64,000 nt of DNA from a virus (Duplodnaviria > Caudoviricetes): IMG/VR virus record IMGVR_UViG_3300021387_000034, positions 18,011-82,010 of that record. One strand, 5' to 3'. Positions 32,564 to 52,421 of the stretch are shown in pieces. Both the position numbers and the translations under genes were made by a program. The first letter of the stretch is position 1, and every line of letters begins with the position of its first letter. The notes beneath the pieces are model-generated. The model did no database searches and was not told where the DNA came from. It saw only the letters and a list, made by a program, of their open reading frames with translations.

Positions 32564-32612
32564 ATCTTATTTCCTTTCTTTTATTACGTTATTAAATTAG
32601 GCGACGTGTGGC

Positions 32613-33284: not shown

Positions 33285-33321
33285 ATCTTTTTCGTTTTAA
33301 TTTGTTAATTGTTCCTTTTTT

Positions 33322-33957
33322 TTATTGTACCTTAATCTTTTTAAGGGATTTAAAGAATTCTTCGTCACGTTTCTGCGTAACTTGCGGTGCAAGTGGCTTT
33401 ATATTTCCAATAGATGGTTTCATAACTTCTTGAAACTTTTCTACCCACTTGTCGGCTTGTTCTTTGTCATCCTTTTCGAGGTCAACGTCAAAGTCCTTAA
33501 CGAAAATCGTAAAACCTGTCATTAAATCTTCTCTGACACCCTTTTTCGCGATTTCCATGATTGCGGAATACTTGGTACGCTTGTTTTCGGCAATCTTGAA
33601 TTGTTTCAACTCGTCAAGTTGGTCTTGAACTTCTTTCGGAATTTCTTTCGTAGGTGTTGGTTCGACTTTGCCCCCAATTTTTTTGTTCAACTCAGCGATT
33701 TGGTTCTTGTAGTCGTTTTCTTTCGACGTAAAGGCATTAGTCTTTTCGGTGATGATAAGGCTTGCTCCACTAAAAGCGGAATTAAGCGCAAATCGCATAT
33801 CACCAAGCGCGGTTTCGTCATCTGCGGTAGCGTCTGGATAACGCTTTGCAAGATGTTCCGCAAATTTGTCTTTAAAACCATCGGTGAGTGTTGCATTTGT
33901 GTAACTTTTCTCGTTACAATAATCGTTTACTTTCTGTAAAGCTTCTTCTTTTGTCAT
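33322..33957 (-). CDS. capsid scaffolding protein
   Basis: helical charged protein heading capsid operon. Confidence 0.55.
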   Translation of the reverse strand: MTKEEALQKVNDYCNEKSYTNATLTDGFKDKFAEHLAKRYPDATADDETALGDMRFALNSAFSGASLIITEKTNAFTSKENDYKNQIAELNKKIGGKVEPTPTKEIPKEVQDQLDELKQFKIAENKRTKYSAIMEIAKKGVREDLMTGFTIFVKDFDVDLEKDDKEQADKWVEKFQEVMKPSIGNIKPLAPQVTQKRDEEFFKSLKKIKVQ

Positions 33958-37501: not shown

Positions 37502-37939
37502 ATGGATATGGAACTTTATAACATAATAAACACCGTTGTTTCTGCATTGTTGGCAGGTGGTTGGTTTATCTACTACCGTGCAAACAAGCGAAAGGCAAAC
37601 GGTGAAGCAACACAAGCCGAAGCCGACGGGTGGGCACGTCAACAAGAGGTGTATCAAAAAACGATTGATGACCTTGATAAGATTTGCGACAAGATACGCG
37701 ATGATAGGAATCACTTACAAACGGCAAACGAAACGCTACGAAAGGAAAACGAGGAAGTACGTGCCAAGCAAGTAAAGATGGAAAATGAAATGCTTGACAT
37801 TAAGCGTGTACAAGCCCGTCAAGGCATGAAATTACAAGCACTTTCCCCTTTTCTTTGCGGTGTAGCGGGGTGTCTGCACCGCAAGAAAGTGACGCTAATT
37901 GATGATGAAATCAAAAACGACATCAACACCCTACAATGA
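37502..37939 (+). CDS. holin/antiholin-like membrane protein
   Basis: N-terminal TM plus coiled coil, upstream of endolysin. Confidence 0.5.
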   Translation: MDMELYNIINTVVSALLAGGWFIYYRANKRKANGEATQAEADGWARQQEVYQKTIDDLDKICDKIRDDRNHLQTANETLRKENEEVRAKQVKMENEMLDIKRVQARQGMKLQALSPFLCGVAGCLHRKKVTLIDDEIKNDINTLQ

Positions 37940-37976
37940 ACATCAATAGTAACCAAAATGGAAAAACCGAATAACG

Positions 37977-38594
37977 ATGCAAACGATTAAGAAAGGGAGT
38001 AGAGGGAACGATGTAAAGGTGTTGCAAAAGTTATTACACCTTTATGAAGATGGCATCTTTGGTACGATAACCAAGGAAGCAGTGTGTGATTTTCAACGTA
38101 AGAACGGCTTAAAGGCAGATGGTATCGTTGGCGATGTAACTTGGGCTAAGTTGCTTAGTAATATTGACAAACTTAAAAAGTCTTCACGCCGCATCAATGA
38201 AATTATCGTACATTGTAGTGCAACTCGTGAAGGTTGTGACTATACTGTTGCTGACATCACGAAATGGCACAAACAACGTGGCTTTAATGATATTGGCTAT
38301 CACTATGTGATTTATCGTGACGGCAGCATACATAATGGCCGCGACGTTAATTTGGTGGGCGCACATTGCACGAACCATAACGCACATTCCATTGGTGTGT
38401 GCTATATCGGTGGTTGTAAGACAGACGGCACGTCGCCAAAGGACACACGAACAGATGCACAAAAGGCCGCTTTGCTTTCTTTGTTAAAGGATTTGCGCAA
38501 GAAATATCCCTATGCAAAGATACATGGCCATCGTGACTTCGCTAACAAGGCTTGCCCGTCATTCGATGCTACTAACGAATATAAAGATATTTAG
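37977..38594 (+). CDS. endolysin: PG-binding domain + N-acetylmuramoyl-L-alanine amidase (Amidase_2)
   Basis: DGIFG/DGIVG repeats; IIVHCSA, IGYHYVI, GHRD...KACPSF. Confidence 0.92.
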   Translation: MQTIKKGSRGNDVKVLQKLLHLYEDGIFGTITKEAVCDFQRKNGLKADGIVGDVTWAKLLSNIDKLKKSSRRINEIIVHCSATREGCDYTVADITKWHKQRGFNDIGYHYVIYRDGSIHNGRDVNLVGAHCTNHNAHSIGVCYIGGCKTDGTSPKDTRTDAQKAALLSLLKDLRKKYPYAKIHGHRDFANKACPSFDATNEYKDI

Positions 38595-38596
38595 TT

Positions 38597-39208
38597 ATGG
38601 AAACACGCGAGGACAAAGAGTTCTATGCCCGCATGTGGGAGAAGAACCAAATGCTTAACAACGGACGCGGTACACCGTTCTATATCGCGTTAATCATTGG
38701 TGTTGTGCTGCTGTTTTCATCTTGCGCCACAAAGAAACATATTGTTGAAAACGACCATCAGAAAACCGAGGTTAAAGTTGATTCTACAGATGTTCAAAGC
38801 GTAAAGGTGGATTCAACAGATACGGAGCATAAGACCGAGATAAAGGAAACCGAGAAAGTCGAAACAGAAACAAAGGTCGAGAAATCAGACTCCACTGTTA
38901 TGACTGTTGATGCGCAAGGCAATGTTATCAAGCAAGAAACGTGGCACAAAGAAAAGGCAACCGTGTCACGTAACCGTGAATATGAAAAACAATTGCTTGA
39001 TTCAATCGCACATTTTCGACTTGCACGTGACTCGCTGAGACAATACATAGCAAAGTGCGATTCTTTGACCGAAATGATAAACCACCAAGAGGTTAAGGTC
39101 GTTGAAAAAACAAAAATTCCTAAAATTTTTAAGGTTTCTTTGATTTTTTCGATTCTTTGTTGTATCTTTGCAATTATAAAAATAATACGGTACATTCAAA
39201 TACACTAA
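38597..39208 (+). CDS. spanin-like lipoprotein (u-spanin architecture)
   Basis: lipobox LFSSC and C-terminal TM helix; after endolysin. Confidence 0.6.
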   Translation: METREDKEFYARMWEKNQMLNNGRGTPFYIALIIGVVLLFSSCATKKHIVENDHQKTEVKVDSTDVQSVKVDSTDTEHKTEIKETEKVETETKVEKSDSTVMTVDAQGNVIKQETWHKEKATVSRNREYEKQLLDSIAHFRLARDSLRQYIAKCDSLTEMINHQEVKVVEKTKIPKIFKVSLIFSILCCIFAIIKIIRYIQIH

Positions 39209-39837: not shown

Positions 39838-41799
39838 ATGAATGAAGAAATAAGCAGAATAGATATTAATAACGTAAACTACAAGCTAAAGGATGAAGAT
39901 ACCAGAGCACTTGGTGAAATGGGTAAACAAGCCTTGATAAAAGTAGGTTATTACGTTTGTAGCACACAGGGAAGTACTGCTGCAAAAACCATTAGTGCTG
40001 CGGATTACACCTTGTCTGCAGGTGGGTGTATCAAAGTAAAAATGGATAATGCAAACACTGTAAATAATGCCACACTGAATATTAATTCAACAGGCGCAAA
40101 GCCTCTTTACTATGCAGGCGAAAGAGCTTCTGCTACTAATAGTTGGGAAGCAGGAGAAACGGTTGAAGTTTACTACGATGGAACAAGTTACTATGCTAAT
40201 AATGTTGCTGGTAATTCTTCTGACGGTGTATTTGATGTAAGTAAAAAATATCCTACAAGTGGTGTAGAAGGAGGTAATACTTATACACTTGAAGGTGCGC
40301 TTTCTGTTCTTAATACTAATCTTCCTGCTAGTAAGAAAAGAGGTGGCATGAGCATTAAGTTCATACAGAGTTCTGACAATAACTATATACAAGCCCGTCT
40401 GATGGCTAATGCTTTCACCACTGATATTACTCAGTGGCAGGTAGTAGATGATACTCCAAAGAAGGGAAGCCACAATCTAATAGAGAGTGGGGGTGTGTAT
40501 GAAAAAACAAAAGGCATACAGCACGAGACTGATGAAACAGGAAATGAAGAGATATTGATTGAAAGCGAAGATAACGGACCTCTTGTTAAAGTAACAGAAG
40601 ATTATGTTGACTGTAAAAACCTTAGAAGTAATGGTGTAGATGTGCTTGATGAAATAGGTAGTATAGCCTCAAAATCTCCGACACCATCAGATACAGATGA
40701 AATACTTTTTACAGGAGATGATTATTCCGAAACACTTGGTGGCGAGGTACACGCGAAAGTAGGAAGTTATGGAGTAAAATCTAAAGGGTATCTTGATATG
40801 GAAGGCAACGATGCCATACAGCCATATATAAACAAAATCAAGAACAAGAACGCAAGATTTATATTCTTAGGCGATTTACATTATCCAGGCAATGATAGCA
40901 ATCTCGATAATGAAGTACCTGTAGAGGATTTGCCATCAAGTATGACAGAAGGACACAGTATTAGATATAAGTATCAGCATCTTGTAGATGCTCTTAATGC
41001 AGAACACCACAAGAGACCTATTGACCTTGTATTATGTACTGGTGATGTTATTGAAAATTATTCTTTTGAGTCTTTCATTAAAGAGTTTGCATGGCAGCTT
41101 GAAATGCCTATTGTATTTGGACCTGGTAATCATGATGTAGTAGCACAAAGTTATTGGATTGAATATTTCGGTAACAAATGGAGTTTTAATGTTGAAACTG
41201 ACGATTTCTTGTTTGTTTTCTTTGATGTGTGGGACCATATAAACATTCCTACAGGAGAACATTTCCCAACGTACCAAGAAATATATGACAGAATTGAAGA
41301 TGCTTGTAGTCATGGTAAAATCGTTATTTCTTTCTCACATTCTGAGGGTGGAGAATATCGTGAAAATATGATTTCTATAGCAAGTCATTTTCCTAACTAC
41401 ATAGCACATGTTGCTGGTCATACACATAGTATGAGACTTCTTCCTTATGGAAAGTTCACTGTTATTAATGACGGAAATTTTGCATATAACGGAGATGGTA
41501 TCTATAGGGAAGATGAAGTTCGAGGTCTTTTTGGGTTTAATAATATTGAAGTCGAAAACGGTTCTTTAAAGACTTGGTTTATTTGGCCTGAATACAATTA
41601 CAGGAAAGCTAATTTCACTTTCCCATTCTCAGAAGGAACTTTGCATAAAGTTGATGATACTCATTATACAGTTGAAAGTAATCAGAAGTTCACAATGATA
41701 GAAAACGCCAACTTGGAGAGCACAGCTGACACCTTGCAGTTATATAAACTGAAAGACATCTACCTAAAGAAAAAGATTGCGATTAACGAAAATAGATAA
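39838..41799 (+). CDS. tail-fibre-like protein with C-terminal calcineurin-like metallophosphoesterase
   Basis: GDLH, GDV, GNHD, SH, GHTH motifs in order. Confidence 0.75.
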   Translation: MNEEISRIDINNVNYKLKDEDTRALGEMGKQALIKVGYYVCSTQGSTAAKTISAADYTLSAGGCIKVKMDNANTVNNATLNINSTGAKPLYYAGERASATNSWEAGETVEVYYDGTSYYANNVAGNSSDGVFDVSKKYPTSGVEGGNTYTLEGALSVLNTNLPASKKRGGMSIKFIQSSDNNYIQARLMANAFTTDITQWQVVDDTPKKGSHNLIESGGVYEKTKGIQHETDETGNEEILIESEDNGPLVKVTEDYVDCKNLRSNGVDVLDEIGSIASKSPTPSDTDEILFTGDDYSETLGGEVHAKVGSYGVKSKGYLDMEGNDAIQPYINKIKNKNARFIFLGDLHYPGNDSNLDNEVPVEDLPSSMTEGHSIRYKYQHLVDALNAEHHKRPIDLVLCTGDVIENYSFESFIKEFAWQLEMPIVFGPGNHDVVAQSYWIEYFGNKWSFNVETDDFLFVFFDVWDHINIPTGEHFPTYQEIYDRIEDACSHGKIVISFSHSEGGEYRENMISIASHFPNYIAHVAGHTHSMRLLPYGKFTVINDGNFAYNGDGIYREDEVRGLFGFNNIEVENGSLKTWFIWPEYNYRKANFTFPFSEGTLHKVDDTHYTVESNQKFTMIENANLESTADTLQLYKLKDIYLKKKIAINENR

Positions 41800-41826
41800 T
41801 TAATTATTAATTAAAAAGGTATTATT

Positions 41827-42483
41827 ATGAAATTAGTTTTAAGAAATTCAAATATGGTGATTTCGTCAATTACATATTTTGTTGAAATCATAAGTGATAA
41901 TGAGATTGTACCTACCATCACACTAACTGGTAACGGAGAAATCCATTATACTCTTGATGGAACCACTCCAACAAGTCTAAGTCCTGTTTATACAGAGCCT
42001 TTCTATTTGTTACAAACCTCTACAATAAAAGCTGCTATAGTCAAAGATGGGAAAGTCGTTTCAGATATAGTTTCAGAGACTATTAATGTTGCATCTCCTG
42101 CAAATACTTATTGGAATGGTCAAACTTTAACAGCAGACTCATCTACACTAACTCCATCTCAATCAAATGGAGTTAATACTACTAATGTAAATAGTGGTGA
42201 TTATATGGTTATGAAGTTTACTATCACTTCAGCAAATGTTACTGGTGCTACATCTTATAATGTAAGACTTAGAACTTCCGACTTTATTGATGTAGTATTA
42301 AAGAGATTTGGTTATGGAGAGGGTCAGGAAAGACCAGTTCTGAACAAAGAATATGTTGTAATAAAAAAAGCAACTTCTTCCTGTATTCTAAAATATGCAG
42401 GATTGCAACTGACAGGTACTCCAACAAGTGGAAATTTTGTGGTTAATATAACAGGTTACATTTATTCAGGCAGTACTAACTAA
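41827..42483 (+). CDS. Fn3/chitobiase C-terminal-like (Ig-fold) domain protein
   Basis: IHYTLDGTTPT..SPVYTEPF....TIKA. Confidence 0.7.
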   Translation: MKLVLRNSNMVISSITYFVEIISDNEIVPTITLTGNGEIHYTLDGTTPTSLSPVYTEPFYLLQTSTIKAAIVKDGKVVSDIVSETINVASPANTYWNGQTLTADSSTLTPSQSNGVNTTNVNSGDYMVMKFTITSANVTGATSYNVRLRTSDFIDVVLKRFGYGEGQERPVLNKEYVVIKKATSSCILKYAGLQLTGTPTSGNFVVNITGYIYSGSTN

Positions 42484-42748: not shown

Positions 42749-45700
42749 ATGGCTCAAAATACTGGACGTAATATAACGTTTCCGATATATAATGCAGACG
42801 GAACTGCTTTTCACGGTTTGGAACTAAAAAAAGCAACAGTTGATAGCGTTGTTATGTCTCTTGGCGACAAGGTGACTGGTGACGTTTATTATATAGACAA
42901 CTACTTGGCCGTGACAATGCAAGAATACATCGTTGTTAATAGCGTAAAATATACACTTGTATCTCCACCTACAATTGTACGCGAGGGTATGGTTGCGGAT
43001 AACACCCAATTAAAGGGCATGACCAAATACTCGTTTACATTCTATCACCCCATGTACCAATTGGGCAACATTCCATTCACCGATATTGCTGTCACGCAAG
43101 GCCAAGAAAAATATCTTTCGCAAAACAAGACTTTTTCTTGGATTGGTAACTTGTTTGAATTTGTACAAAAATTAAGAGCTAACCTTAAAAACACGCAATG
43201 GGCTATTGACGTTGAAATTCCGCAATATGAGCAAGATGGTTCAACCATAACACCGCAATGGGGAAAAGCACTTAAACAAAGCGATGTTTTATCCTTTGAC
43301 AAGAACTTTATAAGCGATGCACTAAAGACGGCGTATGACACATGGGAGATACCTTTTGTGATAAGTCACTATGAAAGTGTACCGCCAAGCGGCTACACAC
43401 GTTTAAAATGGGTTAGAATTTCAGAAATACATCAAAGTGTCACAAACACAACAGCACCATTTTGGTTATTTATATACAATCTAAATTCAGTAAGCGCGGC
43501 GAATAAAAAAATACCTTATTGCAAGGTTTTTAATGAAGACATTTTGCTACTCGACCTTATTCCATGTAAAGATTCAAACAATAACGTTGGTTTGTATGAT
43601 GTTGTTGAGGGCGTGTTCTATGGTAGCAACCAAGAAGTGACTTTTGAAGCTGGCGGAGAAATAGGCAAGAACAAGAAGTTTAACATTACATTTGGATTGC
43701 CTACAAACAATATTTATGACGAGAATGGCAATGAATATGTCTTTAGGTTCGGAAAAGGTCTTGGTTTAAAGAACAATTCTCGTACACCACGAAACAATAA
43801 AATTGTTACACGTATTGTTGGATATGGTAGCGATAGAAACATTCCTTATGGCTATCCACAAATCCATTGGACAGGAAACCAATCGTGGGATTACACAATC
43901 AACAATAATCCAAATGCGGCCAATTCCTACCCTATCTATGATGGTATAGTAGCTGGCCAACGTGTGCGCCTTATCAAGCATCCGTTTACGCGCACAACAC
44001 TTATGCCGTCTATCTATTCGGAAACGGTAAACAAGAAAGTCAATCCAAATGCGACTGGCTATGACCCAGACATTGAGATAAAGGACTATTACGATGCGAT
44101 AGACGATGCTACACACGCTTACCCTAACAATATCAATGTACTTGCACCGTCGGTAGAGGTACACCAATTCGAGAAAGAATATCCACAATTGGGCGAGGCT
44201 GCTATCATTAGTGCAACACCATACGACGAGGACGGTGAATATTACACCTACACACAATGGTATAACTATTTGCAAGCTCGTATTGCAACGATGCGCGGCC
44301 AAGGCATTGACGGTTGGCAACTGCAACTTATCGTTAGTATGCGCGATAATACGTGCCACTATACGCCAGCAACCGCAGAATCTTTGCCGTCGGCATCTAT
44401 ACCTGCTGGGCATTGGGAATGGCGCACAGGTCAAGCAACGGCGACGTTGGATAGCGTTATAAAGGGTAATTTCGTGTATGTTACACTTGTGTCATCGTGG
44501 TACAACGAAACGCACAAGATATTACAAATACATGCCGACCCAACACCAGAATGGGATGATACGATGAATGACGATGGCGAGTATATTCAATCTTATTTCA
44601 AGATTAAACTACCGCAATTGACATTCGACCTTTACGCATGTGCTGCCGTTACGCAAGAAATGAACATCAATATGCGCAGCGGTTCGTGTATGGGTTGTAC
44701 TTTCCCCGTTCAAGTGGATTGGGAATTATACAAGGCCAACTTCTATGATTCCGATGGCAAATTTGCGCCAGACGGAGCACAACGTGACCTTGAAAAATTC
44801 CCGAAATCAAACCTTGGGTCAATAGATGTCATCGTTCAAAAGGATAATGACACATTCGGTACTCTTATGCCGAATCAATACCGTTATCCCGTTAATGGTG
44901 ACAAATTCGTTATCCTTGGTATTTCTTTGCCTACATCGTACATCACAACGGCAGAACAAAGCCTTGATGAAACGATGAAAGAATACATGTTGGAAAACAA
45001 TGTGCATTACTACGACTATCCACTAAAATTCGACGAGCGCTTCTTAGCTACACATCAAAATATATTGGCACAAATAAAGAACAACAATATTGTAAAGTTC
45101 CAATATGCAGGCACACAAATGGCGTTGTATATCAAGCAAATTACTATCAAGTATGGTGACAAGCCTTTGCCGCAATATGACATCACGCTTACCGATGACG
45201 TAGAAATTGTGCTTAACCAAATAGGCCAAGTAACCGATGACGTGAGCCGTATGCGTGTTCAAGTGTCGGAATTGCAAAAATACTATTCCGAAAACCTGAT
45301 ACAAGAAATAAACAGCAAGTTAAGCAAGATTGTTAATGATGTTTGCCAAGGCCGTATAACGTTCCAACAAGGATTAGATTCGTTAGGTAGCGTTATTTTC
45401 CATGATAAGATACAAAGCCCACAATTCGAGGAGGGTCTTTATACTGGTCGTGGGTGGCGAATTGATAACCTTGGTAACGCTGAATTTGAATCAGCACGTG
45501 TACGTTCTTTCTTGGAAATTGTCGAATTGATAGTAAACCGCTTGCAAGCACAAGAGGGTGATACGTTGTTTACCGATAATGACCAAATAGAAAAGGTTGA
45601 TGTTATTGAGGACGAAACCGACCACAGTATTTCGTATATCCTTACTTTGAAAGAAAAGTATCAAGGATATGTGACAGGACAAATGTATGGCAACGTCGTA

Positions 45701-48064
45701 AAAGGTGTCATCAACACGTTAGCGGCCAAACAAGCAGGTGTAAGCGACTACGAAAGCACAAGTGTTGAAGTTGATGGCTCAAACAAATACTACACGTCAT
45801 GGATGCGTGTAATAGACACACACAACACCAACGTAAATCTTGGAGTAAACCAAATCCAAGTTGTGCTTTATGGTGATAACTTTGTGCCTGCAGGACGCAA
45901 TTTTGCTCCATGTGAATTGATGACTATTGCCCGTTGGGGATGCGTGGACTATTCAGACCCCGAAGACCCAGATTATGAGGACATTAAAGCGTCGATTATT
46001 CGCCGTCAACGTATGTTTATGATAAGCACTACCGATGGCCGCGTAGTCAAATATACTGGCGTTGATAGTCCTATCCTAAAGAATGGCAACTATGGCGTTA
46101 CCATTGGTGAATTGCCCGAATTTGTAAAGAACTATCCAGACGTGCGGGCTATCTTGAATCAAGTTGGTGAACACACGGATTGGCTATATGCACAGGGAAT
46201 AGTTGTTGGTAATTTCATTAAGGTGGATATTGAAGGAAGGCCAGAAGTAAATATTATTGATTGTGGCAAATGGGTCGATGGAAGCAGTACGGCCAACCCA
46301 ACACCACGAAACGGTATCTATCTTTACAATGAATGGAACAGCACAACACAACAATATGAAACTCACGATGTATGGCACAATAATGCTAAGTGGCGATGTT
46401 TACAACACCAACCTGTAGTTATTGGTGGCGTAAGCACGTATTACGAACCTACGGATGCTAATTCGGCATATTGGCTTAAACTTGAATACGGTGTAGGAGG
46501 AGATAGTGCTCCCATCGCACTTGCTACACCTGACAAGATAACTATACCTTGCTATTCTAATGGAAACGTTAAAGAACAAAAGACCACAAGTGTCATTTTC
46601 TCGTTAAAAGTTGGTGCAAACACAGCAACCGTAACAAGTTTCGCAGACGGAACAAAGCCAACTGGCGTAACCGTGCAAGGCCAAGCAAACAATGCCGTTA
46701 CTATTACGGTAGGAACAACTGCGACTGCAAGCGGACTTTCGACTGGTGTAACATTTACCGTTACTGGCACTTACGATGGTAAAACGTATTCCGCTACCGT
46801 AACCGTTGCATTGATTGGCGCAACCCAAGGTGAAAGCATTACTGGTCCTCGAGGAAAAATTGGTCGTTTCTTTTATTATGCAGGCGAATGGAATGATTTT
46901 GCAAGTACGGATAGTTTCTTGGTAAACGACGCTCAAGCACCTTATTTCCATTACGACAACAACTATTGGGTATTTAACCCAACAACAAACGGAACGTACA
47001 CGATGTCTGAAATGGGAGCACCGTCATCGTCAAGTGCAAATTGGCAAATAATGACATCGGATTTCAAGTACATAATAACCGAGGCGATATTTGGTAATTA
47101 TGCTCACTTTGGCAGCGCAATCATAAACGGCGATTGGATGATTTCCACAAATGGTAAAATTGGAAACACAGAATACAACAACGGTGCATTATACAATGGT
47201 GTGCCTGCGTACACATTGTTTGACCCCGTACTATTGCATGGCACAAGCATGATACAGACAAACGTATCATCATCGACAACAAAGACATACACAAAAACAT
47301 TTGCATTGTCAGCAGGACGTGGGTATGCTTTCAAAGGGCTTGCTACACCGCCTTCGTCCACGTCAACGATATATATTGCGCTTTATAAAGGTTCAACAAA
47401 CATAAGACAAATAGGCGTTACGGGTTCGGGAATACAATCTTTCAGGTTGGAGGTTTCGGAAACCCTTGTTGTAGGAGGAGAAGACTACAAAATTTGCACT
47501 TGGACTTCAACGGGTAGTAGCACTTTGGGGTATGTTTATATAGACGCACTATCGGGCGTTATATTCTTTCCAAATTACGCTGTGGATATGCTTACTGGAA
47601 ACACATACCAAACAAATGCAATTATCAAGGGTAATATATATTGCAACCAATTCAAGATAACAAGCAATAACTATTCGACATATTGTTACTATTCTTCGTC
47701 AATGAGTGGGTATATAGTCGAAGCGTCTAAAGTTAATGCGGACATACAAATTGAATATGGTTCTGTAGTTGGTGTCAGGTTGCCTATTATAACAAAAAAG
47801 GACGTTGGGCGAGAAGTAAGAATTATAAACTTTTCGGGCAATAGCATTGCCATTGGTGTTGATTATGGCTTTGGCTTTGGTATTTCGGGGTATAATGCTT
47901 TGCTTTGGGATGGCAATAGCGGCTTTAAGAACGTAACACTCGCAACTTACGGAGAATGCTTGTTAAGAGCAATCGAACTACCAGATAGTAAAAAACAAAC
48001 AAGTGAAGACGCCGAATATGGTTGGTCATACGCTTGGGTGTGTGTTCGCTATGGTTCTTACTAA
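42749..48064 (+). CDS. large tail tip/central fibre protein (Tal-like, receptor binding)
   Basis: 1771 aa; tail-endopeptidase-like IVTRIVGYGSDRNIP; beta-rich C-terminal modules. Confidence 0.75.
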   Translation: MAQNTGRNITFPIYNADGTAFHGLELKKATVDSVVMSLGDKVTGDVYYIDNYLAVTMQEYIVVNSVKYTLVSPPTIVREGMVADNTQLKGMTKYSFTFYHPMYQLGNIPFTDIAVTQGQEKYLSQNKTFSWIGNLFEFVQKLRANLKNTQWAIDVEIPQYEQDGSTITPQWGKALKQSDVLSFDKNFISDALKTAYDTWEIPFVISHYESVPPSGYTRLKWVRISEIHQSVTNTTAPFWLFIYNLNSVSAANKKIPYCKVFNEDILLLDLIPCKDSNNNVGLYDVVEGVFYGSNQEVTFEAGGEIGKNKKFNITFGLPTNNIYDENGNEYVFRFGKGLGLKNNSRTPRNNKIVTRIVGYGSDRNIPYGYPQIHWTGNQSWDYTINNNPNAANSYPIYDGIVAGQRVRLIKHPFTRTTLMPSIYSETVNKKVNPNATGYDPDIEIKDYYDAIDDATHAYPNNINVLAPSVEVHQFEKEYPQLGEAAIISATPYDEDGEYYTYTQWYNYLQARIATMRGQGIDGWQLQLIVSMRDNTCHYTPATAESLPSASIPAGHWEWRTGQATATLDSVIKGNFVYVTLVSSWYNETHKILQIHADPTPEWDDTMNDDGEYIQSYFKIKLPQLTFDLYACAAVTQEMNINMRSGSCMGCTFPVQVDWELYKANFYDSDGKFAPDGAQRDLEKFPKSNLGSIDVIVQKDNDTFGTLMPNQYRYPVNGDKFVILGISLPTSYITTAEQSLDETMKEYMLENNVHYYDYPLKFDERFLATHQNILAQIKNNNIVKFQYAGTQMALYIKQITIKYGDKPLPQYDITLTDDVEIVLNQIGQVTDDVSRMRVQVSELQKYYSENLIQEINSKLSKIVNDVCQGRITFQQGLDSLGSVIFHDKIQSPQFEEGLYTGRGWRIDNLGNAEFESARVRSFLEIVELIVNRLQAQEGDTLFTDNDQIEKVDVIEDETDHSISYILTLKEKYQGYVTGQMYGNVVKGVINTLAAKQAGVSDYESTSVEVDGSNKYYTSWMRVIDTHNTNVNLGVNQIQVVLYGDNFVPAGRNFAPCELMTIARWGCVDYSDPEDPDYEDIKASIIRRQRMFMISTTDGRVVKYTGVDSPILKNGNYGVTIGELPEFVKNYPDVRAILNQVGEHTDWLYAQGIVVGNFIKVDIEGRPEVNIIDCGKWVDGSSTANPTPRNGIYLYNEWNSTTQQYETHDVWHNNAKWRCLQHQPVVIGGVSTYYEPTDANSAYWLKLEYGVGGDSAPIALATPDKITIPCYSNGNVKEQKTTSVIFSLKVGANTATVTSFADGTKPTGVTVQGQANNAVTITVGTTATASGLSTGVTFTVTGTYDGKTYSATVTVALIGATQGESITGPRGKIGRFFYYAGEWNDFASTDSFLVNDAQAPYFHYDNNYWVFNPTTNGTYTMSEMGAPSSSSANWQIMTSDFKYIITEAIFGNYAHFGSAIINGDWMISTNGKIGNTEYNNGALYNGVPAYTLFDPVLLHGTSMIQTNVSSSTTKTYTKTFALSAGRGYAFKGLATPPSSTSTIYIALYKGSTNIRQIGVTGSGIQSFRLEVSETLVVGGEDYKICTWTSTGSSTLGYVYIDALSGVIFFPNYAVDMLTGNTYQTNAIIKGNIYCNQFKITSNNYSTYCYYSSSMSGYIVEASKVNADIQIEYGSVVGVRLPIITKKDVGREVRIINFSGNSIAIGVDYGFGFGISGYNALLWDGNSGFKNVTLATYGECLLRAIELPDSKKQTSEDAEYGWSYAWVCVRYGSY

Positions 48065-48076
48065 CAAAGAAACGCT

Positions 48077-48517
48077 ATGTCAAAAATAATCTACAACGAC
48101 TACATACCCCTTAGTGGATTTAAGGCAATGACTTTGTGGCCTTGTGTATTCGTCCGTAATGAGTGCAAGGAACGATTTACGGCTATTGATTCCAACCACG
48201 AAAAGATACATGGTATGCAACAAATTGAAACGCATATCGTGGCATTGATATTGGCCGTTCTTTTGGCCGCAGTCGGTCTTTTTTCTTGGTGGTGGGTACT
48301 TGTAAGCCCTTTGGTGTATTTCGCGCTATATGGCCTTGAATACATCGTTAGGTGGGTTTGCTACGGATTTGATACACGCGAGGCATATCGGAATATAAGT
48401 TTTGAACAGGAGGCATACTTGAACGAAAACGATTTGACGTACATTAAAAACCGTCATTTGTTTGCATCGCGGAAGTATCTTTTTCAAAAACGTATCATCG
48501 CAAATAAACAAAGATGA
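48077..48517 (+). CDS. membrane protein with HExxH motif
   Basis: HEKIH, TM segment, AYRNISFEQEAY. Confidence 0.65.
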   Translation: MSKIIYNDYIPLSGFKAMTLWPCVFVRNECKERFTAIDSNHEKIHGMQQIETHIVALILAVLLAAVGLFSWWWVLVSPLVYFALYGLEYIVRWVCYGFDTREAYRNISFEQEAYLNENDLTYIKNRHLFASRKYLFQKRIIANKQR

Positions 48518-48661
48518 CAAAAGACTTCTATTCCGCAAGTTATTTATATGAAAAACCCCATAAATTACGAATTAGCGGAAATAAATATTTGCGAAGTGTT
48601 TGATAATCAAGATGTTAGCAAACAATAATTCGTAAAAAATTCCACATAAAAGAAAAATATT

Positions 48662-48700
48662 GCCCGTAAACGCCTTTGTTTATTGGGCTTTTTTATTTTG
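48662..48700 (+). terminator. hairpin plus T-tract ending tail operon
   Basis: GCCC..AAAC-loop-GTTT..GGGC then TTTTTTATTTT. Confidence 0.5.
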
Positions 48701-48746
48701 ATGCGGACTTTAAAAAGTACCGTATTGCCATGCTATGTTTTGTGCG

Positions 48747-48754
48747 TAATTTTG
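48747..48754 (+). promoter_or_regulatory. -7 promoter box for five-gene module
   Basis: TAATTTTG followed by hairpin and AT-rich leader. Confidence 0.6.
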
Positions 48755-48819
48755 CACTTGTAATCGGTTACACCCACAAGTGATAATTAACAAAATTCGT
48801 AATTCAAAAAACAAAAATC

Positions 48820-49797
48820 ATGGCAGAAATTTATCAATTACCAGACAACAACCAAGGTGGCAACAATAGCGGTCTTGGTAACATTCCATTCTCTATTCCT
48901 ATTGGAGGTTTTGGTGGAGGTCTTTTCGGTGGCGGAAACTACGGCATGAACGGGATTGCTGACCTGTTTGGACTTGCTATTATTGCTTCAATGTTCGGTT
49001 GGAACGGTAACAATGGCTTTGGTGGTTTTGGTGGTAACGGAAACGCAGCCGCAGGCTACCTTGCAAACCAACTTAACAACGATAGCGGACGTGAATTGAT
49101 TATGAACGCTATCACCAACCAAGGAGAAGCATCACGCACAGCAATCCAAACACTTTCGACAATGCTCGGACAAGACTTTAATCTCGTCAACAGTGCCGTT
49201 AGCAACGTTCAAAACGCTTTGCAGACATTGGCATTGCAGCAAGCCGTTAGTGTTCCGCAAATCATCAATTCTATCCAAAGTGGTGACGCAAACATCATTA
49301 GCACGTTCCAAAAGTGTTGCTGCGACCAACAGCTCGCTATGTGCCAGCAGACCAACACCTTGCAGAACGCCATCAACGGTGTAGGCAATCAAGTGCAAGC
49401 AAAAGCCGCTGCCGACCAGTTGGCAATGTGCCAGCAAACCTATGCTCTTACGGACACTATGAACCGCAACTTCCTTGCTATCGACAACAAACTTGATGCT
49501 ATGGAGTCTAACCGCAAAGACCGTGAGATTACCGCTTTGACAGCAGAGGTTGCATCGTTGAAGTCTCAAAACTTTACTACTGGTGTTGTTCAGCAGGCTG
49601 TTGCTCCTGTAATCGGTCAACTTTCAGCTCTAAGCCGTGAGGTTGATGACATCAAGTGTCGTATGCCAGAAACTGTCAACGTCCAGTGGCCGAATCTTGT
49701 GGCCGTCAATGCAAGCCCCTACGTTAGTGGTGGTTTCTACGGACAGCCTTGGGGTGGTTTCTACGGCAACGGCTTTGGTAACAACATCACGTTTTAA
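48820..49797 (+). CDS. Gly/Phe/Asn-rich low-complexity, Gln-rich coiled-coil protein with CCC motif
   Basis: GGFGGGLFGGGNYG..., KCCCDQQLAMCQQT, internal QLAMCQQT repeat. Confidence 0.85.
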   Translation: MAEIYQLPDNNQGGNNSGLGNIPFSIPIGGFGGGLFGGGNYGMNGIADLFGLAIIASMFGWNGNNGFGGFGGNGNAAAGYLANQLNNDSGRELIMNAITNQGEASRTAIQTLSTMLGQDFNLVNSAVSNVQNALQTLALQQAVSVPQIINSIQSGDANIISTFQKCCCDQQLAMCQQTNTLQNAINGVGNQVQAKAAADQLAMCQQTYALTDTMNRNFLAIDNKLDAMESNRKDREITALTAEVASLKSQNFTTGVVQQAVAPVIGQLSALSREVDDIKCRMPETVNVQWPNLVAVNASPYVSGGFYGQPWGGFYGNGFGNNITF

Positions 49798-49823
49798 TAA
49801 TTAGCGGATAGGAGGTACATAGC

Positions 49824-50159
49824 ATGAGTTGTTTTAATAACATCACAACAAACGCGGGCGGTATTCCGCTACTTATTTCTACGAAGACGACCGTAGGCAC
49901 AGAAACTATTGATATCGCAATGGGCTTTCGCAGGATTCAACCTGTAGGTTATTTCACTGTTCGTATTTCGGATGTGATACCTGCCGATGCCACAACAACA
50001 TTGCCTGTCACCTTAACGCTGAATGGTACTACACGCCAACTTACACTGCCTAATGGCGAAAATGCTACAGCGGCTGAGTTGCTTAACGTGGGTACTATTT
50101 TGGTTTGGAATGACAGATTCAACGGTTCGTTGTACTTGATGTCACGCACCGTAGTTTAA
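49824..50159 (+). CDS. small beta-rich protein (module gene 2)
   Basis: ATG ORF co-oriented. Confidence 0.8.
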   Translation: MSCFNNITTNAGGIPLLISTKTTVGTETIDIAMGFRRIQPVGYFTVRISDVIPADATTTLPVTLTLNGTTRQLTLPNGENATAAELLNVGTILVWNDRFNGSLYLMSRTVV

Positions 50160-50191
50160 TAAAAAGTGTTTAACAACAAAAGTAATTAACA

Positions 50192-50743
50192 ATGGAATTT
50201 TCAGCACTAACGAACGGAATGCCGTTCTATGTATTAAGAAAGAGTGACAAGCCTTTTTTGGAGGTTGGCGTGGTAAAGCAGAAATCACAGCCAAGGGCAC
50301 AATACCCTATGCAGACACCAAATGTCGGCATGGGCTTACAAATGCAGCAGGTTGTGGATATTACGGCTACCATCAACGGCAAGGATGAAACCTTTCCAAA
50401 TTTACCCGTGAATGTGGAAATAGCCCAAAAGGGCAATGATACGTTTAGTGGCAGCAGGGAAGCTATGTTGCAAGCCGTGGATGCTATGTTGCAGACATCA
50501 AAGAAAGCAATAGAGCAAGTTCCGTACCACAAATCGGTAATAACCGAAAGCGAGAAGATGCTTGAAACGCTTAATCCGCAGTATGCCGAAAACAAGCAAA
50601 ACGCAAGGGTTATCCAATCTTTGCAAGAAAAGCAGAAGATGCAAGAGCAACAACTTGCTGAGTTGAAGGCACAGAACACAGAGATGCTATCCATCTTACG
50701 ACAATTGAACGGCGGCCCGTCCGCTGGTGTTGTTAATCCTTAA
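50192..50743 (+). CDS. Gln-rich protein with C-terminal coiled coil (module gene 3)
   Basis: ATG ORF co-oriented. Confidence 0.8.
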   Translation: MEFSALTNGMPFYVLRKSDKPFLEVGVVKQKSQPRAQYPMQTPNVGMGLQMQQVVDITATINGKDETFPNLPVNVEIAQKGNDTFSGSREAMLQAVDAMLQTSKKAIEQVPYHKSVITESEKMLETLNPQYAENKQNARVIQSLQEKQKMQEQQLAELKAQNTEMLSILRQLNGGPSAGVVNP

Positions 50744-50757
50744 AACCGAGTAAAGAT

Positions 50758-50988
50758 ATGGGCTATATATTTATTGACCGTGAGGACGAACAGTCCAAAC
50801 AACAGATGCGTCAGAACATGCGCGACAATATGCGTCGTGGTTATCGTAGTGGCTCTGGTGGTAGTGGTAGCGGTAATTACCGAGAGGGCTATCGTCAGGG
50901 TTACAAAGAAGGATGGGAAGACCACGAAGATGAAATGAACGATGAAATGTATCGTCGTCAACGTGATTCCCGTGGCCGCTTTATGTAA
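50758..50988 (+). CDS. small Arg/Gly/Tyr-rich disordered protein (module gene 4)
   Basis: RRGYRSGSGG..YREGYRQGYKEG..RDSRGRFM. Confidence 0.8.
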   Translation: MGYIFIDREDEQSKQQMRQNMRDNMRRGYRSGSGGSGSGNYREGYRQGYKEGWEDHEDEMNDEMYRRQRDSRGRFM

Positions 50989-51104
50989 TTCGTAAACTTG
51001 GGGGATTGGGTGGGTATTTCCCATTCAATCCTTTCCAATGTTTAAAGAACTGGAAAGAATTGAAAAGAAATTTAGAAACAAAAACAAGAAAAAAGATAGA
51101 TGTT

Positions 51105-51530
51105 ATGGCAAACTTATTGAATTACTTAATTCCGCAAGATATGGAGCAATATCTTTCCTATTATGGCATGCACTTTAACAAGTTGTTGTGTGAATTTGCC
51201 GTTGGAAAGATGAAGCGTGAGGACAAGGCGACAGGAGTGTTGAAAAAGATAACACCGATGACGCTTGATGAACTAAAGACGTTGTTGGAAAAGCACAAAG
51301 TAACGGTAGATACAAACAACGTGTACGACGCTTTGTATTTGGCCAACATGGTAAAAGCGGACTATTGGGGTAGTAGCATAGAGGATGAAGCACACATGGC
51401 ACGTTACATTGAAGATGTTTTGTGTGACCCAGACGGTTACGATGGCATAGCCTTTTGTCGATTCCTTGCGGATTGTAGCGCAAAAGGCGTTGTGATATTT
51501 TGGGAACAAATGATACATACGGCATGGTAG
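51105..51530 (+). CDS. helical hypothetical protein (module gene 5)
   Basis: start MANLLNYL after hairpin 51003-51031. Confidence 0.8.
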   Translation: MANLLNYLIPQDMEQYLSYYGMHFNKLLCEFAVGKMKREDKATGVLKKITPMTLDELKTLLEKHKVTVDTNNVYDALYLANMVKADYWGSSIEDEAHMARYIEDVLCDPDGYDGIAFCRFLADCSAKGVVIFWEQMIHTAW

Positions 51531-51910
51531 TACGGCATATAGACATAGACAACGGCAAATGGGGGATATTGTTCGTTTGTGACTTCGACCTTATGGATTG
51601 GGATAGATTGTCGGCAACCATGCAAACGTTCGGTATGAACGAAAGGAATATCAATAAATCATTAAAGATACTTTCGTCGTACAATAGCGGAATGTGCATT
51701 AGCCGTGACGACGTTCGTATGTCTGCTATCTTTATCGGTAAATCAACGTCCACAAGTCAATTTTGGTCAACAGTAAGCCATGAATTGTTTCATGTGGAAC
51801 AAGCGATATTAGACTATTACGGCACATCATGGGATGGTGAACCCGCTGCGTATCTTTCAGGCTATCTTTTGCAAAAGGTAGTGGAAGAAATAGCTGAACC
51901 TTGTTACTAA
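51524..51910 (+). CDS. HExxH metallopeptidase-like protein
   Basis: VSHELFH...EPAAYL. Confidence 0.6.
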   Translation: MVVRHIDIDNGKWGILFVCDFDLMDWDRLSATMQTFGMNERNINKSLKILSSYNSGMCISRDDVRMSAIFIGKSTSTSQFWSTVSHELFHVEQAILDYYGTSWDGEPAAYLSGYLLQKVVEEIAEPCY

Positions 51911-51944: not shown

Positions 51945-52304
51945 ATGGAAAGAGAAAAACTTTTAGAGGAATACAAGGTAACACTTGAAAGCCTCGTTGA
52001 GAAGACAAAATTCGTGTACGGTGAAGAGTTTTACAAACTTGATGAGTTCGACAAGAAAAAGTATCAAAACGACAAGATGACAACAGAAGCGCACCTTGGC
52101 ACTTTGTGTAATTTGCTTTGGGGCGAAAAGTTTCAATTTGGAAATAACGGCTTGTTTGACTTGTTCGGCTTGGGCATTATCGGTTCTATGTTCAGCGGAG
52201 GTAGTTTTTTGGGTAGCACACCAAATATGGACTGCTTGAAGAAAACGATTGATGAGGGAGAAAACAAAGAAAAAGAACAAATGTTCGCTATTCCCACGAA
52301 ATAG
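51945..52304 (+). CDS. hypothetical protein (crAss001_48-like helical hairpin)
   Basis: F.KL...M..HL..L pattern recalled; unverified. Confidence 0.45.
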   Translation: MEREKLLEEYKVTLESLVEKTKFVYGEEFYKLDEFDKKKYQNDKMTTEAHLGTLCNLLWGEKFQFGNNGLFDLFGLGIIGSMFSGGSFLGSTPNMDCLKKTIDEGENKEKEQMFAIPTK

Positions 52305-52421
52305 AAAATAAAGCCGTTTAAGCGCATTTTATATTAGTTGTGGTAAACTACAAAGGAAAGCGCAAGAAAAGCCGTTATCGGGCTTAAAAACACCGTTAGC
52401 GGCTTTCTTTTACGAACTAAT

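What the first reader, a model, noticed from the sequence alone, without database searches (positions are those of the whole stretch)
48820..51530. Five-gene module with prion-like/FG low-complexity and RGY proteins under its own promoter
Seen: a terminator and a new TAATTTTG promoter isolate an operon of five genes. Gene 1 has G/F/N-rich low-complexity ends (GGFGGGLFGGGNYG; GGFYGQPWGGFYGNGFG), a Q/N-rich coiled core, a CCC motif and a duplicated QLAMCQQT. It is followed by a small beta protein, a Q-rich coiled-coil protein, a disordered R/G/Y protein and a helical protein. Codon usage of gene 1 looks like the capsid gene, suggesting high expression. I recall similar uncharacterised clusters in gut phages but cannot verify this. 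Inference: a self-assembling structure, such as a condensate, amyloid-like coat or spore-coat-like shell, that could protect virions or phage DNA or remodel the host.
Basis: partly seen in the sequence, partly recalled or inferred. Interest (0 to 1): 0.72.

Follow-up and report, generated by a model that had tools for sequence, protein, structure and literature searches.

The report
Portable six-gene phage envelope-fibre operon
This is a real, separately transcribed operon of six (not five) genes that thousands of gut and rumen Bacteroidales phages of every tail type carry in the same order; it probably builds a membrane-associated coiled-coil stalk with a tail-fibre-like partner and a small protease, its function is still unknown, and a condensate or amyloid coat is not what the evidence favours.

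Summary
The ORFs, the Gly/Phe/Asn-rich ends, the CCC motif, the duplicated QLAMCQQT, the upstream terminator-like hairpin and the TAATTTTG box are all present.

The unit is larger than reported. A sixth gene, a zincin with invariant HExxH...E, belongs to it, and a variable seventh follows. The order g1-g2-g3-(g4)-g5-g6 is kept in about 80 IMG/VR loci, in 25 Bacteroidales MAG loci, in Crassvirales, and in the cultured B. uniformis phage C3_41T2LP.

A TAnnTTTG box lies 45-100 nt upstream of g1 in 53 of 75 loci. RNA-library contigs from the source sample match g1-g4 exactly.

- **g1:** a short Gly-zipper hydrophobic segment, a helical bundle and a helix of about 125 residues. Its rod region is swapped between otherwise near-identical cassettes.
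- **g2:** folds like a trimeric tail-fibre bead (modest scores).
- **All six proteins:** none has a characterised relative.

The phage's ordinary lysis cassette lies 10 kb upstream. In other phages lysis genes often abut the cassette.

Best reading, at about 0.35: an autonomous accessory operon that builds an envelope-associated fibrous complex acting late in infection.

This scan has already met the same cassette on other genomes, with similar verdicts.

The parts
48662..48700 (+). Terminator-like hairpin plus T-run. It closes the upstream tail-fibre/g0 transcription unit.
   Evidence: RNA fold dG -11.6, z -3.1 against shuffles, followed by TTTTTTATTTT.
48747..48754 (+). TAATTTTG, matching the Bacteroidetes -7 promoter consensus TAnnTTTG, 73 nt before the g1 start.
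   Evidence: The position is conserved in 53 of 75 related loci, against 11% of control windows. The leftmost exact RNA-library contig starts at 48775, which is a weak hint only.
48755..48782 (+). 7-bp inverted repeat (CACTTGT...ACAAGTG) directly after the promoter box. It is either a 5' stem-loop of the mRNA or an operator.
   Evidence: dG -7.8, z -2.5 to -2.7. Repeats in the same position but with different sequences occur in many related loci.
48820..49797 (+). g1, 325 aa. Gly-rich N-terminus, short glycine-zipper hydrophobic segment (about residues 46-58), helical bundle 76-153, invariant CCC 166-168, one long helix 157-281, conserved P..TV..P motif, and a Gly/aromatic tail ending in F.
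   Evidence: phrog_16490, function unknown, matched by all 69 members scanned. More than 5,700 clusters at 90% identity and 453 at 50%. The rod region is swapped between cassettes.
49824..50159 (+). g2, 111 aa, all-beta. It is the most conserved protein of the unit (mean column identity 64%) and has a tail-fibre 'bead'-like fold.
   Evidence: AF2 pLDDT 87, pTM 0.79. PDB best match is Pa193 tail fibre gp47 residues 246-336, Z 5.4, rmsd 3.1, 85 residues aligned, with the next hit at Z 3.3. BFVD gives domains of many phage tail fibres at E 1e-4 to 1e-3.
50192..50743 (+). g3, 183 aa. N-terminal beta-rich part, helical middle with a nearly invariant LNP motif, and a C-terminal coiled coil.
   Evidence: phrog_28898, function unknown. 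No PDB sequence match.
50758..50988 (+). g4, 76 aa, a disordered R/G/Y/M/D-rich protein with a conserved MGYIFID start and RRQRDSRGRF end. Other lineages carry an analogous small protein instead.
   Evidence: Detected in 43 of 84 loci by tblastn; a small ORF of similar composition holds the same slot in others.
51105..51530 (+). g5, 141 aa from the ATG at 51105 (the ORF is open from a TTG at 51006). Helical DUF7841 protein.
   Evidence: Pfam PF25223, E 1e-26, starting at residue 44 of the long ORF. phrog_38431. Family lengths are 130-150 aa.
51524..51910 (+). g6, 128 aa, a minimal zincin metallopeptidase. Its ATG overlaps the g5 stop (ATGGTAG).
   Evidence: Invariant H94, E95, H98, E114 and G121 in 36 members. 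Only weak Pfam hits to SprT-like and Peptidase_M78..
51945..52304 (+). g7, 119 aa, lineage-specific. N-terminal coiled coil plus a C-terminal hydrophobic segment that copies g1's.
   Evidence: 13 of 19 residues identical to g1 residues 41-59, pairwise E 5e-6. Found in 7 of 84 loci, and only with the same g1 segment type.
52313..52372 (+). Imperfect hairpin element after g7, at the end of the rightward unit. Genes beyond it are on the minus strand.
   Evidence: Fold dG -18.7, z -1.6. Strand switch.

Best explanation
The region is an autonomous accessory operon of six conserved genes (g1-g6, 48820-51910) plus a lineage-specific seventh. A host-type Bacteroidetes promoter drives it, and phages exchange it as a unit.

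Proposed mechanism, mostly inferred:
- g1 oligomerises through its ~125-residue helix into a coiled-coil stalk roughly 19 nm long.
- g1's short glycine-zipper hydrophobic segment holds it on, or inserts it in, a host membrane.
- g2, a tail-fibre bead-like beta domain, and g3, a beta plus coiled-coil protein, join the stalk.
- g4 (disordered, basic tail) and g5 (DUF7841) act as partners or assembly factors.
- The g6 zincin processes one of the components.
- The complex acts at the cell envelope late in infection, in connection with lysis or egress. It is not a virion core part and not a condensate.

Shown: gene content, conserved order, conserved promoter position, presence in RNA libraries, predicted folds, catalytic motif, mosaic exchange.

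Inferred: oligomeric state, membrane location, contacts between the partners, timing, role.
For: Unit and autonomy:
- The gene order is kept in 80 IMG/VR loci and 25 MAG loci.
- It is also kept in Crassvirales cr272_1 and in the cultured phage C3_41T2LP.
- In C3_41T2LP (TerL 52% identical) the cassette sits at the same junction in the opposite orientation relative to the structural genes.
- The promoter box position is conserved, and a terminator lies upstream.
- Exact contigs from two RNA libraries lie on g1-g4, some bridging g1/g2 and g3/g4.

Membrane element:
- Every family member has a Gly-flanked hydrophobic stretch.
- g7 carries a copy of it.

Fibre-like parts:
- g1 is predicted as one long helix.
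- g2 matches the tail-fibre bead fold.

Protease: the HExxH...E motif is invariant.

Link to lysis:
- Holin, endolysin or spanin-like genes lie within about 3.5 kb in roughly 25-36% of loci.
- They lie directly after a reduced cassette in the cultured phages PD691P6 and BF486P2.

Not morphotype-bound: carriers include Crassvirales (podoviruses), a phage with a tape measure gene, and contigs labelled myo-, sipho- and podovirus. The g1 N-terminus stays conserved across them.
Against: - The hydrophobic segment is short. The best 19-residue hydropathy has a median of 1.43, only 17 of 69 members reach 1.6, there are almost no flanking K/R, and some members are barely hydrophobic. A true transmembrane anchor is therefore not established.
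- g2-g6 have no export signals.
- In this window the lysis cassette is 10 kb away. Adjacency elsewhere may only reflect both units sitting at the end of late operons.
- The g2 fold match is modest (Z 5.4), and the matched template region is itself an AlphaFold model fitted to a map.
- There are no expression-timing data and no protein-level data.
Confidence: 0.35

Rival explanations
1. Virion accessory fibre. g1 is the stalk and g2/g3 the distal or joining domains of a head, neck or side fibre. g4 and g5 are assembly chaperones and g6 is a maturation protease, by analogy with multi-gene tail-fibre modules.
For: - g2 has a tail-fibre bead fold.
- g1 has a long coiled coil.
- The cassette lies after tail-fibre genes here and in several loci.
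- The g1 rod is exchanged like fibre or receptor-binding modules.
- g1 codon usage is close to the capsid gene's.
Against: - The cassette occurs in podo-, sipho- and myo-type genomes with a conserved g1 N-terminus and no variable adaptor domain.
- g2 is far more conserved (64%) than receptor-binding tips usually are.
- In C3_41T2LP it sits downstream of recombination genes, away from virion genes.
- Cultured crassviruses with solved virions did not appear among the tblastn hits.
Confidence: 0.2
2. Superinfection exclusion or counter-defence device at the membrane. An abundant membrane-held rod blocks DNA entry by other phages or neutralises a membrane-bound host defence. The swapped rod alleles would reflect an arms race.
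For: - It is an autonomous, moron-like unit with a host-type promoter.
- It also lies inside very long Bacteroidales MAG contigs, which suggests prophage carriers.
- Rod alleles at 12-28% identity sit in cassettes whose g2 and g3 are 91-99% identical.
- It has a membrane-like segment.
Against: - Six co-conserved genes including a fibre-like domain and a protease are more than known exclusion systems need.
- There are no data on expression in lysogens.
Confidence: 0.15
3. g1's Gly/Phe/Asn/Tyr-rich ends drive a condensate, an amyloid-like coat or an intermediate-filament-like cytoplasmic network that protects virions or DNA or remodels the host.
For: - The composition of both g1 ends and the head-rod-tail layout are as described.
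- g4 is disordered and R/G/Y-rich.
- g1 shows signs of high expression.
- No known fold matches g1.
Against: - The N-terminal region is strongly conserved (76-96% identity where the rod is 12-28%). It contains a hydrophobic glycine zipper with nearly invariant glycines, unlike drifting low-complexity domains.
- The idea does not explain the fibre-like g2, the zincin or the association with lysis genes.
Confidence: 0.08
4. It is the phage's core lysis cassette in an unrecognised form, with g1 or g7 as holin or spanin and g6 as endolysin.
For: - g1 and g7 combine a hydrophobic segment with a coiled coil.
- g6 is a peptidase.
- The cassette is adjacent to lysis genes in other phages.
Against: - The window already encodes a complete candidate set at 37502-39208: a TM plus coiled-coil protein (weak LysB-like hit), a PG_binding_1 plus Amidase_2 endolysin, and a lipobox plus C-terminal-TM u-spanin-like protein.
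- Many carriers have holin, DUF5675 endolysin and spanin-like genes as well as the cassette.
- There is no lipobox in g1-g7.
Confidence: 0.03

Closest known systems
Phage morons: autonomous accessory transcription units inserted between conserved phage genes (from general knowledge: lambda bor and lom)
   Same: - Own promoter and flanking terminator or hairpin.
- Variable position and orientation between related phages.
- Carried as an optional extra by unrelated phage backbones.
   Different: - Six co-conserved genes that look like one assembly, not a single gene.
- Present in apparently virulent phages as well.
- No known lysogenic-conversion role.
Accessory and regulatory proteins of lysis cassettes: spanins Rz/Rz1 and T1 gp11, P2 LysB, PBSX XhlA, T4 RI/RIII (from general knowledge)
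   Same: - A hydrophobic segment plus coiled coil (g1, g7).
- Conserved cysteines.
- Frequent adjacency to holin, endolysin and spanin genes.
   Different: - No lipoprotein partner and no canonical transmembrane domain.
- g1 is two to three times longer than these proteins.
- Four further conserved proteins with no counterpart.
- The phage has its own spanin-like gene elsewhere.
Trimeric phage tail fibres with beta 'bead' domains, such as Pseudomonas phage Pa193 gp47 (PMC11456595), and multi-gene fibre modules with chaperones
   Same: The g2 fold resembles a fibre bead. A coiled-coil stalk protein sits next to it. Small partner genes follow.
   Different: - g2 is a free-standing 111-aa protein and is highly conserved.
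- No fused long forms were found.
- There is no virion evidence.
- g1's N-terminus is hydrophobic and Gly-rich rather than a virion-attachment domain.
Class I viral fusion proteins (influenza HA2, coronavirus S2 HR1)
   Same: A Gly-rich hydrophobic peptide is followed by a long Q/N-rich helix. This resemblance explains database labels such as 'spike protein/glycoprotein' and 'outer capsid protein/viral fiber' on homologues.
   Different: - Profile E-values are only 0.006-0.1.
- There is no C-terminal membrane anchor and no second heptad repeat.
- The resemblance is one of composition and layout, not demonstrated homology.
Zincin-like metallopeptidases of phage and conjugative-element proteins (MPTase of polyvalent proteins, PMC5512222; SprT-like; Peptidase_M78)
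   Same: g6 has HExxH plus a downstream Glu at the expected spacing and is the size of a minimal zincin core.
   Different: - It is stand-alone, not part of a polyvalent protein.
- It falls below the threshold of every Pfam model scanned.
- Its substrate is unknown.

Membership tests
Spanin (i-spanin / u-spanin) | N-terminal transmembrane domain anchoring the protein in the inner membrane | tested here: inconclusive
   The hydrophobic segment is present in all members but short. Best 19-residue hydropathy has a median of 1.43, 17 of 69 members reach 1.6, and there are few flanking K/R.
Spanin (i-spanin / u-spanin) | Outer-membrane lipoprotein partner or own lipobox | tested here: not met
   No lipobox in g1-g7. 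The window's lipobox plus C-terminal-TM protein is a different gene at 38597-39208.
Spanin (i-spanin / u-spanin) | Encoded within the lysis cassette | tested here: inconclusive
   The cassette is adjacent to lysis genes in about 25-36% of loci. It is 10 kb away in this window.
Class I viral fusion protein | Significant sequence or profile similarity to HA2 or S2 | tested here: not met
   Best PDB profile E-values are 0.006-0.1, limited to the Gly-rich peptide and first helices. Foldseek found nothing at E <= 0.001.
Class I viral fusion protein | C-terminal membrane anchor and a second heptad repeat packing on the first | tested here: not met
   The C-terminus is a disordered Gly/aromatic tail, and the model has a single long helix.
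Phage tail-fibre bead / knob domain (g2) | Fold similarity to beta domains of trimeric fibres | tested here: met
   Pa193 gp47 residues 246-336: Z 5.4, rmsd 3.1, 85 residues aligned, clearly above the next hit at Z 3.3. More than 20 BFVD tail-fibre or RBP proteins match at E 1e-4 to 1e-3, TMq 0.5-0.6. The scores are modest.
Phage tail-fibre bead / knob domain (g2) | Trimeric assembly as part of a virion fibre | not testable with these tools
   No multimer modelling or proteomics was available. No fused long forms were found by sequence, which is weak evidence.
Zincin metallopeptidase (g6) | HExxH helix plus a downstream third zinc ligand (Glu) | tested here: met
   H94, E95, H98 and E114 are invariant in 36 members.
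MPTase-PolyVal clade (the label on the C3_41T2LP homologue) | Match to the Pfam model at or above threshold | tested here: not met
   The window protein had no such hit at E <= 1. No member of 36 had one at E <= 0.05; only SprT-like (3 members) and Peptidase_M78 (2 members) appeared, weakly.
   The g1 ends and g4 have the composition described.
   This needs purified protein or live-cell imaging. The strong conservation of the N-terminal region is atypical for such domains.
Moron-type autonomous accessory unit | Own promoter and terminator, with variable position or orientation among related phages | tested here: met
   Promoter position is conserved. An upstream terminator is present. The orientation is opposite in C3_41T2LP. 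Neighbouring genes vary between loci.

The most novel reading that the evidence does not exclude
The cassette encodes a previously undescribed phage 'organelle'. This would be a membrane-anchored, fibre-like, protease-matured assembly that Bacteroidales phages of all morphotypes plug into their genomes to control what happens at the host envelope at the end of infection: timing or completeness of release, protection of progeny from debris, or exclusion of competitors. The exchangeable rod alleles would set its specificity.
Probability: 0.3. Interest if true: 0.8.

Novelty: categorically new. Interest (0 to 1): 0.6.

Why it matters
Gut and rumen Bacteroidales phages, crAss-like ones included, are among the most abundant viruses of mammals, and how they leave or manipulate their hosts is poorly known.

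A six-gene unit found in thousands of them, moved between unrelated backbones and apparently well expressed, must give a general advantage. Yet none of its proteins has a characterised relative.

Cultured carriers exist, so the question can be tested directly:
- C3_41T2LP on B. uniformis carries the full cassette.
- PD691P6 and BF486P2 carry reduced forms.

The work also corrects misleading database labels on g1 homologues ('spike protein/glycoprotein', 'outer capsid protein/viral fiber'). These labels rest on resemblance in composition to viral fusion proteins.

Tried and rejected
Searches that found nothing:
- Megablast of the region against GenBank phages: no match.
- Pfam, PHROGs and NCBIfam on all eight proteins: only unknown-function families, DUF7841, and sub-threshold coiled-coil hits.
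- PDB profile searches for g1, g2, g3, g5 and g6: nothing significant.
- Foldseek PDB for g1 and g2: no match at E <= 0.001.
- VIA wide search for g1: only generic coiled coils, Z <= 7.9.
- ESM Atlas for g1 and g2: only unnamed viral clusters and no structures held.
- Search for longer fused forms of g2 and g5: none found, which is weak evidence.
- Alignment-based locus search with the g1 family: failed for lack of conserved columns. A single-protein query was used instead.
- Literature searches for C3_41T2LP and DUF7841: no papers. The Benler 2021 paper does not mention the cassette.

Analyses that gave no clear answer:
- Heptad analysis of the g1 rod: weak, polar core with shifting register, so no oligomer call.
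- Covariation between the hydrophobic segments of g7 and g1: too little variation to test.

RNA evidence not used: contigs leave 44000-48754 and the region beyond 51290 uncovered in runs X16 and X19.

Ideas rejected:
- The core lysis cassette idea, because a complete candidate set lies at 37502-39208.
- A scaffolding-protein idea raised by a weak phrog_3017 hit. The hit is confined to the coiled-coil part of g1, and the capsid gene cluster lies elsewhere, at 31283-33957 on the minus strand.
Full report
**What the DNA is.** The window is bases 18011-82010 of an 82,010-bp single contig. The contig's last 107 bases repeat its first, so the assembly is circular or permuted.
- It is a tailed phage. 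It has a large terminase and an SPP1-type portal, a 1,938-aa ORF in the position of a tape measure, and a 1,771-aa fibre-like ORF directly before the region of interest.
- The closest cultured relative is Bacteroides phage C3_41T2LP, which infects B. uniformis (terminase 52% identical).
- DNA holders and relatives come from animal gut and rumen metagenomes and from Bacteroidales MAGs.

**The observation.**
- A hairpin with a T-run at 48662-48700 (dG -11.6, z -3.1) is followed by TAATTTTG at 48747-48754, 73 nt before the g1 ATG.
- The motif TAnnTTTG is not enriched in the window as a whole (87 found, 87.5 expected).
- Comparative data do support the promoter. Among 75 non-redundant related loci, 53 carry TAnnTTTG 45-100 nt upstream of g1. 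Only 11% of random 270-nt windows from the same loci hold the motif anywhere.
- Many loci have an inverted repeat starting 1-3 nt after the box, with different sequences in different loci.

**The unit is six genes, not five.** I fetched 80 IMG/VR loci that encode g1 relatives.
- tblastn finds g2, g3, g5 and g6 in the same order and strand in nearly every locus long enough to hold them: g2 in 78, g3 in 79, g5 in 76 and g6 in 72 of 84 loci.
- g4 is detected in 43. Elsewhere a small ORF of similar composition takes its slot.
- g6 starts at an ATG that overlaps the g5 stop.
- g7 occurs in 7 loci and the upstream gene g0 in 5, so both are variable neighbours.
- A homing-endonuclease-like gene on the opposite strand is sometimes inserted between g2 and g3.
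- The same order is found in 25 Bacteroidales MAG loci. Some lie inside contigs of 240-540 kb, which suggests prophage carriers.
- It is also found in Crassvirales genomes such as cr272_1 and in C3_41T2LP.
- The g1 family is large: more than 5,700 clusters at 90% identity and 453 at 50%.

**Autonomy.**
- In C3_41T2LP the cassette lies at the junction between the virion genes and the replication/recombination genes, but on the opposite strand relative to the virion genes. There it follows the recombination genes.
- Upstream neighbours vary between loci: tail fibres, lysis genes, tail-tube and chaperone-like genes. In 27 loci a small helix-turn-helix gene sits directly before g1.
- The cassette is mosaic. 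Loci whose g2 and g3 are 91-99% identical to the window's have a g1 with the first 125 residues at 76-96% identity, while residues about 175-275 fall to 12-28%. The rod is therefore exchanged as an allele.

**Expression.**
- One RNA library comes from the same sample as the probable source, and a second comes from another study. Contigs identical to the window lie at 48775-48956, 49231-49453, 49703-49933, 50222-50581 and 50557-51002, and at four similar places in the second run.
- Some contigs bridge g1/g2 and g3/g4. These are assembled contigs, which cannot give ends, strand or level, and DNA carry-over is not excluded. I take them only as a hint that g1-g4 are transcribed.
- With codon weights taken from the capsid gene, g1 scores 0.68. 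That is above the terminase, portal, fibre and replication genes at 0.53-0.63.

**The proteins.**
- **g1.**
  - AlphaFold with 69 sequences (mean pLDDT 67) gives disordered Gly-rich ends, a short helix at 46-58, a helical bundle at 76-153 and one helix at 157-281.
  - The family alignment shows a conserved N-terminal motif, a Gly-flanked hydrophobic stretch, a nearly invariant CCC, a conserved P..T motif after the helix, and a Gly/aromatic tail.
  - The hydrophobic stretch is short and often aromatic or glycine-zipper-like, with almost no flanking K/R. Best 19-residue hydropathy has a median of 1.43. It is membrane-active-looking but not a textbook anchor.
  - Profile search of the PDB gives only weak hits to influenza HA2 and coronavirus S2 HR1 (E 0.006-0.1), covering the Gly-rich peptide and first helices. 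This explains the labels 'spike protein/glycoprotein' and 'outer capsid protein/viral fiber' on homologues and is not evidence of homology.
  - Structure searches return nothing specific.
- **g2.**
  - It is the most conserved protein (64% mean column identity) and gives a confident all-beta model (pLDDT 87).
  - Its best solved match is residues 246-336 of the Pa193 tail fibre gp47: Z 5.4, rmsd 3.1, 85 residues aligned, with the next hit at Z 3.3.
  - That part of gp47 is a 'bead' of three four-stranded sheets in a trimeric shaft, built from an AlphaFold model fitted to the map (PMC11456595).
  - In BFVD, after family members, more than twenty tail-fibre or receptor-binding proteins match at E 1e-4 to 1e-3.
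- **g3** has a beta-rich N-terminal part, a conserved LNP motif and a terminal coiled coil.
- **g4** is disordered, with a conserved basic end.
- **g5** is Pfam DUF7841.
- **g6** has invariant HExxH and a Glu 16 residues after the second His but reaches no Pfam threshold. The 'PolyVal' label on its C3_41T2LP homologue is not reproduced.
- **g7** carries a copy of g1's hydrophobic segment, 13 of 19 residues identical.

**Relation to lysis.**
- The window has an ordinary candidate lysis set 10 kb upstream: a TM plus coiled-coil protein with a weak LysB-like hit (37502-37939), a PG_binding_1 plus Amidase_2 endolysin (37977-38594), and a protein with a lipobox and a C-terminal TM (38597-39208). 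The cassette is therefore not the core lysis system.
- In 13 of 80 IMG/VR loci a recognisable endolysin lies 1.2-2.2 kb directly upstream on the same strand, usually with holin-like and spanin-like genes. Further loci have only holin- or spanin-like neighbours.
- Among 25 MAG loci, about nine have lysis genes within 3.5 kb on either side.
- In the cultured phage PD691P6 a reduced version is followed directly by holin, endolysin and a spanin-like gene. The reduced version consists of a 226-aa g1-like protein with Gly-zipper and CCC, a g3-like protein, and a g4-like region fused to DUF7841.
- In BF486P2 the DUF7841 gene also precedes the holin.
- My set of lysis queries was incomplete, and both kinds of unit tend to sit at operon ends. 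The association is suggestive, not proven.

**Interpretation.**
- The conserved order, translational coupling and joint exchange point to one assembly.
- A stalk-forming helix, a fibre-bead protein and a second coiled-coil protein point to a fibrous complex.
- The cassette occurs in podo-, sipho- and myo-type genomes with a conserved g1 N-terminus. That favours a universal anchor such as a host membrane over a docking site on a particular virion.
- Neighbourhood data favour a role near lysis or egress.

I put this reading at about 0.35. The rest is unassigned. That the operon is real and autonomous I hold at above 0.9.

**Earlier notes of this scan.** The same cassette has been reported on other genomes.
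- Follow-ups there called it a portable 'membrane-rod' or 'fibre-like' operon that often sits beside lysis genes.
- I re-tested the claims about gene order, the g2 fibre-like fold, the zincin motif, lysis adjacency and the swapped rear half of g1, and they hold here.
- I did not test the claims about late timing or about occurrence in other phyla.

Noticed in passing
window 37502-39208: Candidate lysis cassette in three parts. A TM plus coiled-coil protein with a weak LysB-like hit (37502-37939). A PG_binding_1 plus Amidase_2 endolysin (37977-38594). A protein with a lipobox (LLFSSC) and a C-terminal TM, i.e. a unimolecular-spanin layout (38597-39208). No obvious holin lies beside them.
   Followed up: partly
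window 48077-48517: g0, 146 aa, with a strongly hydrophobic stretch and an HExxH-like HEKIH motif (phrog_15610, 'protease'). It lies directly before the cassette here but several kb away, or is absent, in related loci.
   Followed up: partly
window 48755-48782 and related loci: An inverted repeat begins 1-3 nt after the promoter box in many loci, with differing sequences. In 27 loci a small helix-turn-helix gene of about 80 aa sits directly upstream of g1. The repeat may be its operator or a 5' stem-loop of the mRNA.
   Followed up: partly
L012, L014, L020, L037, L059, L065 (between g2 and g3): A minus-strand gene of about 150-260 aa is inserted between g2 and g3 in several cassettes. In C3_41T2LP the member of this cluster is annotated DNA endonuclease I-HmuI.
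   Followed up: no
window 51945-52304: g7 carries a near copy of g1's hydrophobic segment (13 of 19 identical). It has a coiled-coil-plus-C-terminal-TM layout like small accessory lysis proteins. It is present only in cassettes with the same g1 segment type.
   Followed up: partly
BFVD hit A0A8S5LXP6 (row 6): A 294-aa DUF7841 protein of a crAss-like virus matches the g2 fold over about 106 columns. This may be a natural g2-g5 fusion, which would argue that the two proteins work together.
   Followed up: no
window 39838-42483: A 653-aa fibre-like protein carries a calcineurin-like phosphoesterase domain. A 218-aa protein carries Fn3_assoc and CHB_HEX_C domains. Both sit among the tail genes.
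   Followed up: no
genome contig ends (outside and inside the window): The last 107 bases of the 82,010-bp contig repeat its first 107. The assembly is therefore circular or terminally redundant, and the genome is probably complete.
   Followed up: partly
L017:7147-7683 and relatives (cluster c14): Proteins of about 180 aa with an N-terminal TM and a C-terminal DUF6808 ending in an OMP-like G/Y/F-rich stretch. They sit after the DUF5675 endolysin in many Bacteroidales phage loci and may be a spanin type of these phages.
   Followed up: no
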